From a virus (taxonomy: Duplodnaviria > Heunggongvirae > Uroviricota > Caudoviricetes), in IMG/VR virus record IMGVR_UViG_2706794686_000007: DNA of 33,508 nt; one strand, written 5' to 3'. The notes beneath the pieces are model-generated. The model worked only from the letters and a program-made list of their open reading frames with translations. It did no database searches and was not told the DNA's origin. Position 1 is the first letter of the stretch, and every line of letters starts with the position of its first letter. Below, in pieces: positions 25,149-27,073 of the stretch. Position numbers and translations under genes: made by a program.

Positions 25149-25473
25149 TATGTATCCCCTGTAATTCCGGCAAGGCCGAAAGATGGCACCAGTGCGTCAC
25201 CTGTCCGTCCTCATCTTCAAGGCAGGCTCCGGTTTCTTCATCAATAAAAAAGCCTTCATACCCCATATGGCCGATGCGCAGTTCCTGTTGGTCACCATAC
25301 TGAACAATCAGCACGACAGCCTCCATATCAGGCGGAAATGCGTCATCCAGTGAATGCCAGGGATAACCGCGCAAATCCCCGAAATAAACGCCGGTCAGCG
25401 TTCCGCCACAGAGCGGCATTCCGGCGGCACACACAAGAGGTTCATCTGATTCAACAAATAAGGTCGTTATCAT
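25141..25473 (-). CDS. hypothetical early protein
   Basis: 110-aa acidic ORF, translationally coupled to both neighbours. Confidence 0.45.
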   Translation of the reverse strand: MITTLFVESDEPLVCAAGMPLCGGTLTGVYFGDLRGYPWHSLDDAFPPDMEAVVLIVQYGDQQELRIGHMGYEGFFIDEETGACLEDEDGQVTHWCHLSALPELQGIHNG

Positions 25474-26021
25474 GGCGTTAACTCCCGTAATACAGCGTCC
25501 TCGGCAGTCCGGCGACGGTAATAAACTGCGTGAGCAGAATGTTCAGATATTCCAAACTTTTCGCCAATTTCCCGGAATGACAGACGGCGTGGGTAATCGG
25601 AATCACGCAGCTCACGTATAAGACGTACATCATCATCAGATATGCGCGTGCCGGGGCGTAACTCTCCGCACTTTGTTAATCCAGCACCAATCATTCCTGC
25701 CCGACATCTGACAGAATCTTTATTACGTCCGAGATATTCTCCCATTTGCTGGCAGGTCATTGTTCTGGCATTTTTTCGAATAAACTTATCTTCATCAGGT
25801 GTAAATCTTGGGTGTTTATATTTCAGTAACTCCGGGTATGAACTGCGCAATACACCAGTCCGGTTATATACAGCCCAGACAGTTCTTTTTATTCTGGCAG
25901 CAATATCCTTAACCGGGGTGGATGAATAAAGCGCAATCAGCAGCGCATCTTCTTCAGGTGTCCACGGACGGACATGAGCGGGGGCGCGACCTTTTAGTCC
26001 CATGGGTTGTAATTTCATCAT
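25470..26021 (-). CDS. DNA-binding protein with three tandem HTH-like repeats
   Basis: Three repeats begin WTPEEDALL…, FTPDEDKFI…, ISDDDVRLI…, each followed by a basic helix; the last resembles a sigma region-4-like HTH (RLSFREIGEKFGISEHSAHAVYYRRR). Confidence 0.45.
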   Translation of the reverse strand: MMKLQPMGLKGRAPAHVRPWTPEEDALLIALYSSTPVKDIAARIKRTVWAVYNRTGVLRSSYPELLKYKHPRFTPDEDKFIRKNARTMTCQQMGEYLGRNKDSVRCRAGMIGAGLTKCGELRPGTRISDDDVRLIRELRDSDYPRRLSFREIGEKFGISEHSAHAVYYRRRTAEDAVLRELTP

Positions 26022-26024
26022 GCA

Positions 26025-26540
26025 TCACCCCCTGACTCGCTTTTCAGCAGCATAAAACTCATCAGACAGTATTTCGGTCATTTTCTGTTTTGCGGGTTTT
26101 ACGCCGCACTGAAGGTAAATCACATCGTCAACGCAGAACCACTTCACAGGGCCAAACAGGATTGCCGAGAAATCAATACCCAACCAGAACAACAGCGCAT
26201 CGGTTCTGGCATACGTGACGGGCGAATATTCACGCCACAGACTGTTCAGTTCATCAGAGGCAACACGCAGGGTTTTAGGGATACGTGATGTGCGCGGTGT
26301 GCAGCTCCAGCCATTCGACGCAGTCGGTTTTCGCCATAAGTCGCGATGAAAAGGATATTTGTCCTCCGTAAAACGCAGTCCCTTAAAGTAAAATCCACTG
26401 ATACCGGATACAAATACCGACCGGCACGCAACATTCAGCACGGCCTCAAGGCGTTTTGCCTCATCCTTAACTTTCTGGCAGTCCTGCTGGTATTTTTGCC
26501 ACGCAGCCAGCGCGGAAGGGTTTGATGTTTTAAAGAACAT
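26025..26540 (-). CDS. hypothetical early protein
   Basis: 171-aa Trp/Cys-containing ORF; no family recognised. Confidence 0.45.
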   Translation of the reverse strand: MFFKTSNPSALAAWQKYQQDCQKVKDEAKRLEAVLNVACRSVFVSGISGFYFKGLRFTEDKYPFHRDLWRKPTASNGWSCTPRTSRIPKTLRVASDELNSLWREYSPVTYARTDALLFWLGIDFSAILFGPVKWFCVDDVIYLQCGVKPAKQKMTEILSDEFYAAEKRVRG

Positions 26541-27073
26541 TACGCCACCTCCGCAGATATCCCGGCAGGCGCTGCTGTCCGGTCAACAATCAGGTAGCGC
26601 AGAACATGTTCAGTGATATTCCAGCCGCTTAAACCGCAGATAATGACGCCCAGGCGTATGTCGATATACGCCATCACAAACTGGGGCACGCCTTCTTTCA
26701 TGGCCTGCTCATCAACTTCAGCCACCACATAAACGGTTTCACAGGTCAGAACGCCCTGAGCAAATTCCCACGCCATCGACGGAATATCATGCCCCTCAAT
26801 CCATGGCAGGGATTTTCTGAAGCCGCACCACTGAACATCATCAGCCGCAGATTCCTGGCTGCATTTGCGACGAACCGGCTGCACCGGGCGGGGACGCGGA
26901 ATATCATAAAAACCGTTACATTCCGTCAGCACGCCTGCATCAACCGCATCACGCAGAAAATAAACCATGGAGGATGGCGGCATATTCATTTTTTCAGCCA
27001 GTACACCGCAGGTCAGGCGGCCATAAATACACAGCCAGTTTTTAACCCCTTCAAGCACTTTTGCATCAATCAT
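26540..27073 (-). CDS. hypothetical early protein with possible N-terminal winged helix
   Basis: 177-aa ORF; stop overlaps the downstream start; a 145-bp AT-rich gap separates it from gam. Confidence 0.45.
   Translation of the reverse strand: MIDAKVLEGVKNWLCIYGRLTCGVLAEKMNMPPSSMVYFLRDAVDAGVLTECNGFYDIPRPRPVQPVRRKCSQESAADDVQWCGFRKSLPWIEGHDIPSMAWEFAQGVLTCETVYVVAEVDEQAMKEGVPQFVMAYIDIRLGVIICGLSGWNITEHVLRYLIVDRTAAPAGISAEVA

What the first reader, a model, noticed from the sequence alone, without database searches (positions are those of the whole stretch)
25470..27073. Translationally coupled early block with a three-repeat HTH protein and two unrecognised proteins
Three genes (26540-27073, 26025-26540, 25470-26021) plus the 110-aa ORF (25141-25473) are joined by overlapping stop/start codons. 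The 183-aa product carries three tandem HTH-like repeats, the last sigma region-4-like, suggesting a DNA-binding regulator or host-takeover factor. The two upstream proteins matched nothing I recognise. The 145-bp AT-rich gap after gam (27074-27218) may hold an internal promoter.
Basis: partly seen in the sequence, partly recalled or inferred. Interest (0 to 1): 0.45.

Follow-up and report, generated by a model that had tools for sequence, protein, structure and literature searches.

The report
Mu-like prophage early genes, Myb-type insert
This is the ordinary "semi-essential" early-gene block of a Mu-like prophage of E. coli: two genes are plain homologues of phage Mu gp11 and gp12, and the other two are an extra gene pair, already catalogued in databases, of which one encodes a small DNA-binding protein built from three helix-turn-helix units.

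Summary
The ORFs exist exactly where stated and are real genes, shown by family matches, Shine-Dalgarno sites and dN/dS of 0.16-0.27. The window is a Mu-like prophage identical to E. coli chromosomes.

- **183-aa and 110-aa genes:** neither is a positional counterpart of a Mu gene. They form a two-gene insert between gp12 and gp13; gp13 and gp14 follow at 25005-25148 and 24716-25003.
- **Coupling:** three of the four junctions overlap; gp12/183 has a 3-nt gap.
- **Gap after gam:** there is no promoter support. It holds a hairpin conserved with Mu and is a variable gene slot.

Verdict: ordinary, catalogued, function unknown.

The parts
27074..27218 (-). gam-gp11 spacer (145 nt, 36% G+C). The 5' ~80 nt (27139-27218) are conserved with Mu and contain a GC hairpin (about 27151-27179; GGCGC...GCGCC) followed by TGAAA. 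The 3' ~65 nt (27074-27138, 28% G+C) are absent from Mu.
   Evidence: Alignments with Mu and three E. coli relatives. The conserved part is 71% identical to Mu, equal to gp11 coding DNA. The hairpin folds at -15 to -20 kcal/mol in the window, Mu and L003, with no U-tract after it. It is unique in the window and has no Rfam match. In L003 and L005 an extra gene (DUF5420 or a 180-aa hypothetical) occupies the slot after the hairpin. Only one weak promoter-like match, at 27121-27092.
26540..27073 (-). Homologue of phage Mu gp11 (177 aa); function unknown.
   Evidence: BLASTP to Mu gp11: 68% identity, 9e-83. Pfam PF25754 Gp11_C 5.7e-41 over residues 90-167. phrog_1949 4e-105. No PDB sequence relative. 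dN/dS 0.22.
26025..26540 (-). Homologue of phage Mu gp12 (171 aa); function unknown. Its start shares 1 nt with the gp11 stop (TAATG), as in Mu (TGATG).
25470..26021 (-). Three-HTH protein (183 aa; RefSeq WP_000977059.1, 'SANT/Myb-like DNA-binding domain-containing protein'). Myb/SANT-type units at about residues 18-59 and 71-110. A third HTH at about 125-169. A conserved disordered N-terminal arm (1-17) and a C-terminal helix (173-181).
25141..25473 (-). 110-aa protein of unknown function. It overlaps the 183-aa gene by ATGA and is its constant partner in Mu-like prophages.
   Evidence: phrog_6925 2e-51. No match to any Mu protein. 81% identical in a Salmonella Mu-like prophage next to the 183-aa homologue. 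Absent next to P2-like homologues. The family is restricted to E. coli and Salmonella. The DUF551 resemblance is below threshold (14.6 vs 22 bits; 1 of 15 members).
25005..25148 (-). Homologue of Mu gp13 (47 aa, four CxxC zinc-ribbon motifs). It marks the end of the two-gene insert.
   Evidence: 88% identity to Mu gp13 over 41 aa, 5e-26. phrog_5584 3e-26. Overlaps the 110-aa gene by 8 nt. Not annotated in the RefSeq records examined.
24716..25003 (-). Homologue of Mu gp14 (95 aa from the ATG at 25003).
   Evidence: 49% identity to Mu gp14, 1.6e-29. phrog_6075.

Best explanation
The region is the distal part of the semi-essential early operon of an E. coli Mu-like prophage. By analogy with Mu, it is read from the early promoter Pe as one long transcript; this step is inferred.

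The gene order on the - strand is gam, a spacer with a conserved hairpin, gp11, gp12, [183-aa three-HTH protein, 110-aa protein], gp13, gp14, a convergent gp15-like gene, then gemA.

gp11 and gp12 are backbone genes shared with Mu, and their function remains unknown. The 183-aa and 110-aa genes are an accessory two-gene cassette inserted at the gp12/gp13 junction. They are expressed by translational coupling, through a 3-nt gap and then an ATGA overlap.

The 183-aa protein is a small, all-helical DNA-binding protein with two Myb/SANT-type HTH units plus a third generic HTH. It is a longer relative of Mu gp9. It most probably reads an extended, asymmetric DNA site with its three recognition helices and acts as a dispensable early accessory regulator or DNA-site binder. 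Its target is unknown.

Shown here: gene identities, the insertion, the fold, the repeat homology, the family distribution and the pattern of variation. Inferred: DNA binding, transcription from Pe, and any regulatory role.
For: Identity of the element: 100% match to E. coli chromosomal prophages that carry a Mu transposase, MuB-like ATPase, Gam, GemA and Mor.

Orthology to Mu gp11, gp12, gp13 and gp14.

Insert status: Mu goes directly from gp12 to gp13, and neither insert protein matches a Mu protein at that position.

Fold and repeats.

Myb-type nature of the repeat unit: the family profile retrieves 12,863 representatives, many of them arrays that score up to 9e-44 on Pfam Myb_DNA-binding, and 19 of 22 close relatives match that family.

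Relation to Mu gp9: same PHROG (5e-29), hhalign probability 97.4%. None of the window's ORFs between the MuB-like gene and gam matches gp9, and the three of them scanned against PHROGs fall outside phrog_323.

Mobility between phage types: 37-44% identical homologues lie in P2-like early operons, in Salmonella overlapping gpA by 4 nt.

Sequence-specific binder: the scaffold helices are conserved while the third (recognition) helices are most variable. In repeat 3 the entropies are H3 1.93 bits, H1 0.47 and H2 0.20.

Real gene under purifying selection with allele exchange. The backbone and the insert co-occur in the same 232 of 5,426 complete E. coli genomes, but the insert is far more diverged.

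Literature: the Mu SE region is transcribed as part of the long early transcript and its ORFs are largely uncharacterised (PMC3325207, PMC3820752).
Against: No DNA target, binding assay or phenotype is available, so the regulatory role is inference from fold alone. SANT-type domains can bind proteins rather than DNA.

The window protein itself is below the Pfam gathering score for every HTH family (Myb 19.7 vs 24.4 bits).

Whole-chain Foldseek matches are all weak (E >= 0.06), because the three units are flexibly linked.

Transcription from Pe, and the absence of internal promoters, is assumed from Mu and was not measured here.

The complementarity between gp9 and the 183-aa gene rests on only two lineages.
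Confidence: 0.75

Rival explanations
1. Host-takeover factor acting through sigma mimicry. The third HTH behaves like sigma-70 region 4 and redirects or blocks host RNA polymerase by binding the beta-flap or -35 elements.
Confidence: 0.06
2. GcrA-like, methylation-responsive regulator. The Myb-type units recognise N6-adenine-methylated sites, linking early gene control to Dam-type methylation.
Confidence: 0.06
3. Inter-phage competition or counter-defence factor. The cassette is an exchangeable accessory module whose specificity diversifies because it targets other mobile elements or host defence loci.
For: It sits in an accessory slot absent from Mu. It is shared between Mu-like and P2-like phages. 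Allele exchange is evident, with dS 0.62 against 0.05-0.25 for neighbouring genes, and the recognition helices are hypervariable.
Against: No PADLOC match. dN/dS of 0.27 shows no positive selection at whole-gene level. Variable recognition helices are equally expected for an ordinary regulator that co-evolves with its own phage's sites. There are no functional data.
Confidence: 0.1
4. For the gap only: the AT-rich spacer after gam carries an internal promoter that drives gp11 and the downstream genes independently of Pe.
For: The gap is 36% G+C, and its 3' 65 nt are 28% G+C. There is one sigma-70-like match at 27121-27092 (ATGAAA-18-AATAAT, 9/12). A secondary early promoter (Pe*) has been described elsewhere in Mu (PMC3820752).
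Against: Promoter-like sites are not enriched (4 found against 5.6 +/- 2.4 in shuffles). The candidate lies in the 65-nt segment that is missing from Mu and replaced by a gene in relatives. The conserved part of the spacer is instead a GC hairpin without a U-tract, which is more consistent with an RNA processing or stability element, or a protein-binding site.
Confidence: 0.1

Closest known systems
Phage Mu semi-essential early region, genes gp11-gp14 (NC_000929 Mup11-Mup14)
   Same: Same order, strand and position between gam and gemA. gp11 is 68%, gp12 55%, gp13 88% (over 41 aa) and gp14 49% identical. The gp11/gp12 1-nt stop/start overlap is the same. The hairpin in the gam-gp11 spacer is conserved.
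   Different: The window has two extra genes (183 aa and 110 aa) between gp12 and gp13, and about 47 extra nt in the gam-gp11 spacer. None of its ORFs between the MuB-like gene and gam matches gp9.
Mu gp9 (Mup09, 99 aa; PHROG 323 'transcriptional regulator, D5-like')
   Same: Same PHROG. gp9 aligns with repeats 2+3 of the 183-aa family (27% identity; hhalign probability 97.4%). Both are early-operon products with no experimentally defined function.
   Different: gp9 has two HTH units, not three, and lacks the N-terminal Myb unit and arm. It lies upstream of gam rather than after gp12.
Eukaryotic Myb/SANT repeat DNA-binding domains (c-Myb R2R3, WER, CoREST SANT) and the bacterial GcrA DNA-binding domain
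   Different: Only the first of the three regularly spaced tryptophans is kept (direct reading of the sequence). The third unit is a different HTH subtype. There is no GcrA-type second domain and no transactivation domain. The window protein is below the Pfam gathering score.
Homologues in P2-like (Peduoviridae) early operons, e.g. the 'DNA binding protein' of Citrobacter phage Shae_phiSM and Salmonella prophage proteins upstream of gpA
   Same: 37-44% identical over the full length, with the same three-unit architecture. They are early-operon genes, and in the Salmonella prophages the gene overlaps its downstream neighbour gpA by 4 nt.
   Different: A different phage backbone, with the gene lying between cox/Dam-methylase-type genes and the replication initiator gpA. 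The 110-aa partner is absent.

Membership tests
Phage Mu gp11 family (Pfam PF25754 Gp11_C; phrog_1949) | Significant full-length similarity to Mu gp11 and a match to the Gp11_C model above its gathering score | tested here: met
   68% identity over 177 aa, 9e-83. Gp11_C 139 bits against a cut-off of 27. phrog_1949 4e-105.
Phage Mu gp12 family (Pfam PF26885 Phage_Mu_Gp12; phrog_2314) | Significant full-length similarity to Mu gp12, and position immediately after gp11 with a shared stop/start base | tested here: met
   55% identity over 169 aa, 4e-70. All 46 homologues carry precomputed PF26885. TAATG junction. The local Pfam copy lacks this newer model.
Myb/SANT-like HTH repeat proteins | Units of about 50 residues folding as three-helix bundles | tested here: met
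Myb/SANT-like HTH repeat proteins | Tandem homologous repeats | tested here: met
   Repeat 1 vs repeat 2: hhalign E 1.6e-13, probability 98%. Repeat 3 is only weakly similar (E about 1e-3, probability 8-18%).
Myb/SANT-like HTH repeat proteins | Match to Pfam Myb_DNA-binding (PF00249) at or above its gathering score | tested here: inconclusive
   The window protein scores 19.7 bits against 24.4. However, 19 of 22 relatives match (best 6.3e-9), and repeat-array relatives score up to 9e-44.
Myb/SANT-like HTH repeat proteins | Three regularly spaced tryptophans per repeat forming the core | tested here: not met
   Only the first aromatic residue is kept (W20 in repeat 1, F73 in repeat 2). The other positions hold aliphatic residues. 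This is read directly from the sequence and alignment, as in many 'Myb-like' rather than canonical Myb repeats.
Myb/SANT-like HTH repeat proteins | Sequence-specific DNA binding through the third helix | not testable with these tools
   Indirect evidence only: the third helices are the most variable elements.
Sigma-70 family (region 4) | Region 4 HTH above the Pfam threshold, together with regions 2 and 3 | tested here: not met
   Sigma70_r4 12.2 bits against 24.1. TIGR02937 12.3 bits against 42.9. No region 2 or 3 is present. Generic HTH families match equally well.
AsnC/Lrp family (the name RefSeq gives to close relatives) | N-terminal HTH plus a C-terminal alpha/beta effector-binding domain | tested here: not met
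   The model is all-helical with no alpha/beta domain. Only the HTH_AsnC-type model matches, at 18.8 bits against 27. The name is a misnomer based on the HTH alone.
GcrA family | GcrA-type DNA-binding domain plus a second domain, matching Pfam PF07750 | tested here: not met
DUF551 (for the 110-aa protein) | Match to PF04448 above its gathering score | tested here: not met
   14.6 bits against 22. Only 1 of 15 family members matches, at E 0.06. The motif resemblance (PW...PP...THW...LPE) is a lead only.
Translationally coupled operon block | Stop and start codons overlapping or within a few nt, with an SD inside the upstream gene | tested here: met
   Junctions are TAATG, TGAtgcATG, ATGA, ATGgaTGA and TAAtATG, each with a purine-rich SD-like run upstream. 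Actual coupling was not measured.

The most novel reading that the evidence does not exclude
The 183-aa three-HTH protein and its relatives (Mu gp9, and the P2-like homologues upstream of gpA) could form a family of exchangeable specificity modules. On this reading, their hypervariable recognition helices let temperate phages target particular DNA sites outside their own regulatory circuit. Possible targets include rival prophages, host defence loci, or methylated promoters read in a GcrA-like manner. The invariant 110-aa partner would act as an effector in Mu-like phages.
Probability: 0.1. Interest if true: 0.55.

Novelty: already known. Interest (0 to 1): 0.2.

Why it matters
It matters little beyond tidying the annotation. 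The practical results are these:

1. The two "unknown" proteins are Mu gp11 and gp12.
2. The Myb-type gene and its 110-aa partner are an accessory cassette at the gp12/gp13 junction, not part of the Mu backbone.
3. The "AsnC family" label on close relatives is a misnomer.
4. The gp13 zinc-ribbon gene is missing from the RefSeq annotation of the prophage records examined here.

The function of the Mu semi-essential genes is a long-standing small gap in knowledge. The three-HTH family is present in about 4% of complete E. coli genomes, is shared with P2-like phages and has variable recognition helices. That makes it a reasonable, cheap target for a DNA-binding experiment, but nothing here is surprising to a specialist.

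Tried and rejected
- **PDB sequence searches** for the 183-aa protein, gp11, gp12 and the gp11 N-terminus gave only noise: a homeodomain at E 0.036 and MIF at E 0.5-1.5. My guess that the gp11 N-terminus is a winged helix therefore has no support and is dropped.
- **Methyltransferase association** of the three-HTH family was considered and rejected as general.
- **DUF551 membership** of the 110-aa protein was rejected as unsupported.
- **Defence-system models (PADLOC)** matched none of seven proteins.
- **Rfam** has no family in 24300-27900.
- **A small peptide in the spacer** was rejected. The ATG before the hairpin opens a 15-codon frame in Mu and a 17-codon frame in the window, and an indel puts them in different frames (direct reading).
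- **A clamp-binding motif in the conserved N-terminal arm** was rejected, because the Q is not conserved in the alignment.
- **Literature searches** for Mu gp9 and gp11-gp14 function found nothing specific. The 2026 MuC/clamp paper does not mention these genes.
- **Sandbox limitation:** L002 (Mu) and several other loci were not exported to the sandbox, so the Mu DNA was typed in.
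Full report
**What is in the sequence.** The window is a Mu-like prophage read on the - strand. The 2.9-kb stretch around the finding is 100% identical to E. coli chromosomes. The RefSeq annotation of one such record shows the Mu-type layout:

- repressor and Ner-like HTH genes
- Mu transposase
- MuB-like AAA ATPase
- five small ORFs
- Gam
- the block in question
- gp16/GemA and Mor
- lysozyme and the late genes

They are real genes:

- Each falls in a PHROG family at E 1e-51 to 1e-105.
- Each start is preceded by a purine-rich Shine-Dalgarno-like run.
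- dN/dS against a related prophage is 0.16-0.27.
- The antisense ORFs inside the block match nothing.

**Junctions**.

| Junction | Sequence | Arrangement |
|---|---|---|
| gp11/gp12 | TAATG | 1 nt shared, as in Mu (TGATG) |
| gp12/183-aa | TGA-tgc-ATG | 3-nt spacer, not an overlap |
| 183/110 | ATGA | 4-nt overlap |
| 110/next gene | ATGgaTGA | 8-nt overlap |
| gp13/gp14 | TAAtATG | 1-nt spacer |

The "overlapping stop/start" description is therefore right for three of the four junctions it names and nearly right for the fourth.

**Mapping to Mu.** I fetched Mu (NC_000929) and compared all the proteins.

| Window ORF | Mu counterpart | Evidence |
|---|---|---|
| 177 aa | gp11 | 68% identity; Pfam Gp11_C 5.7e-41 |
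| 171 aa | gp12 | 55% identity; homologues carry the newer Pfam family PF26885, named Phage_Mu_Gp12 |
| 47 aa, 25005-25148 | gp13 | 88% over 41 aa; four CxxC motifs |
| 95 aa, 24716-25003 | gp14 | 49% identity |
| 79 aa, + strand, 24496-24735 | gp15 (distant) | positional counterpart; Mu gp15 hits the same PHROG weakly |
| 183 aa | none at this position | related to gp9, see below |
| 110 aa | none | no Mu match |

Relative to Mu, where gp12 runs straight into gp13, the window carries a two-gene insertion. Both points need correcting.

**The 183-aa protein.** Twenty-one full-length relatives from E. coli and Salmonella (43-74% identity) were aligned with the window protein.

- **Model:** AlphaFold2 gives a confident model (pLDDT 84.6). 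It has three consecutive three-helix bundles, a disordered but conserved N-terminal arm, and a C-terminal helix.
- **Repeats:** Profile-profile comparison of alignment slices shows that units 1 and 2 are homologous (E 1.6e-13). Unit 3 aligns in register but only weakly.
- **Pfam:** The window protein is below every gathering score. Across the 22 relatives, Myb_DNA-binding matches 19, Sigma70_r4 20 and HTH_AsnC-type 19.
- **Breadth of the repeat unit:** A profile search of 1.84 billion representatives finds 12,863 proteins at E <= 1e-3. They include many 300-1,500-aa arrays with 4-9 copies of the unit. Those arrays score up to 9e-44 on Myb_DNA-binding, and one is fused to a helicase.

"Sigma region-4-like" is only generic HTH similarity. 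The RefSeq label "SANT/Myb-like" is apt, whereas "AsnC family protein" on close relatives is not, because no effector domain exists.

**Relatives and context.**

- Mu gp9 (99 aa, upstream of gam) belongs to the same PHROG and aligns with units 2+3 (hhalign probability 97.4%). None of the window's ORFs between the MuB-like gene and gam matches gp9, and the three scanned against PHROGs fall outside phrog_323. The two phages may therefore each carry one member of the family at a different place, but that rests on only two lineages.
- In E. coli and Salmonella Mu-like prophages the 183-aa gene is always followed by the 110-aa gene. The partner is 81% identical in Salmonella, against 59% for the HTH protein.
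- More distant homologues (37-44% identity) lie in P2-like early operons without the 110-aa partner. In the Salmonella prophages the homologue overlaps the gpA replication-initiator gene by 4 nt.
- A Dam-type methyltransferase is one gene upstream in two P2-like contexts. It is absent in Shae_phiSM and in the Mu-like prophages. The mycobacteriophage matches fall inside a split methylase gene that other records annotate as an HNH endonuclease. I do not regard the methylation link as supported.

**Variation.** The gp11-gp12 backbone and the insert co-occur in the same 232 of 5,426 complete E. coli genomes. The backbone is >= 90% identical in all of them, while the insert is mostly 60-90% identical. 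Against strain SCU-106, the 183-aa gene has dS 0.62, compared with 0.05-0.25 for its neighbours, and dN/dS 0.27. That is the signature of exchange of a diverged allele under purifying selection.

Within the family, the third helix of each unit is the most variable element. In unit 3 the entropies are H3 1.93 bits, H1 0.47 and H2 0.20. This is what one expects of a sequence-specific DNA binder whose specificity differs between alleles.

**gp11, gp12 and the 110-aa protein.** All three remain of unknown function.

- gp11 has no PDB sequence relative.
- The 110-aa family is confined to E. coli and Salmonella. Its DUF551 resemblance is below threshold.
- None of the proteins matches a defence-system model.
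- The held literature describes the Mu SE region as 14 largely uncharacterised ORFs. They are transcribed with A and B on the long early transcript and are collectively harmful to the host (PMC3325207, PMC3820752). Nothing specific on gp9 or gp11-gp14 was found.

**The gap after gam.** The spacer is 145 nt and 36% G+C.

- Its first ~80 nt are 71% identical to Mu. That equals gp11 coding DNA and exceeds gp12 (59%).
- This part contains a GC hairpin that folds in the window, in Mu and in a relative (-15 to -20 kcal/mol). TGAAA follows it rather than a U-tract.
- After that point the sequences diverge. Mu goes on to gp11. The window and L004 have about 47 extra AT-rich nt. L003 and L005 have a whole extra gene, either DUF5420 or a 180-aa hypothetical. 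The spacer is therefore a second variable slot.
- The only promoter-like match (9/12) lies in the non-conserved part, and promoter-like sites are not enriched in the region.
- There is no Rfam match, and the hairpin is unique in the window. Its role is unexplained. It could be an RNA processing or stability signal, or a protein-binding site.

**Verdict.** This is an ordinary, already catalogued part of a Mu-like prophage. The most useful outcome is the corrected anatomy:

- the Mu backbone genes gp11, gp12, gp13 and gp14
- an accessory cassette encoding a Myb-type three-HTH protein related to Mu gp9, plus a 110-aa partner

The mechanism I commit to is a sequence-specific DNA-binding accessory regulator, made by translational coupling from the early transcript. 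Confidence in the DNA-binding inference is about 0.75, and lower for any specific role. Interest is low (0.2). The most novel reading still open is an exchangeable specificity module used against other elements or for methylation sensing, with a probability of about 0.1.

Noticed in passing
window 25005-25148 (- strand): The 47-aa zinc-ribbon ORF (four CxxC motifs) is 88% identical to Mu gp13 and matches phrog_5584 (3e-26). It is left unannotated in all four RefSeq E. coli prophage records examined, which show a gap between the 110-aa gene and the gp14 homologue.
   Followed up: partly
window 24448-24467 (- strand), just upstream of gemA (start 24425): An intrinsic-terminator-like hairpin with a T-run (GGCGGTGCGGTAACACCGCC CATTTTTTAT) lies in the direction of the early transcript, between the convergent gp15-like gene and gemA. 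Mu has a similar hairpin at the same place (GGCGGTGTTGCAGCACCGCC), followed by a less T-rich tail. It could attenuate early transcription before gemA/mor.
   Followed up: no
window 24496-24735 (+ strand): A 79-aa gene convergent with the early operon overlaps the end of the gp14 homologue by 20 nt. It matches phrog_32893 (1e-45), which Mu gp15 hits only weakly (6e-4). In relative L004 a DUF2513 gene occupies this position, so this too is a variable slot.
   Followed up: partly
window 27139-27195 (- strand): A conserved hairpin (GGCGC...GCGCC followed by TGAAA) lies in the gam-gp11 spacer. It is shared with Mu and the E. coli relatives, has no U-tract and no Rfam family, and its function is unexplained.
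   Followed up: partly
window 28358-28639 (- strand): A 93-aa ORF upstream of gam matches phrog_1518, labelled 'host nuclease inhibitor' (3.8e-43). The true Gam homologue is the separate gene at 27219-27779, so the PHROG label may be misleading or this may be a second nuclease-inhibitor-like gene.
   Followed up: no
window 762-1030, 23402-23664, 27359-27628: Three runs of N (269, 263 and 270 bases) mask parts of the window. The second lies inside the mor homologue and the third inside gam. None touches the four genes of the finding.
   Followed up: yes
L003 2978-3556 and L005 2978-3520; L009 3368-3946: Related prophages carry an extra gene between gam and gp11: a 192-aa DUF5420 protein or an unrelated 180-aa hypothetical. 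It sits 3 nt upstream of gp11. The window has only about 47 AT-rich nt there.
   Followed up: partly
P0088 (137 aa) and P0089 (172 aa), relatives of the 110-aa protein: The invariant N-terminal ~45 residues of the 110-aa family (MITTLFVES...GDLRG) are joined to unrelated C-terminal parts in two variants. This suggests a modular protein with a constant N-terminal module.
   Followed up: no
P0093 (807 aa) and other long hits: The Myb-type unit of the 183-aa protein occurs in arrays of 4-9 copies in many 300-1,500-aa proteins from genomes and metagenomes. At least one array is fused to a ResIII/Helicase_C helicase. Their organisms and roles were not examined.
   Followed up: no
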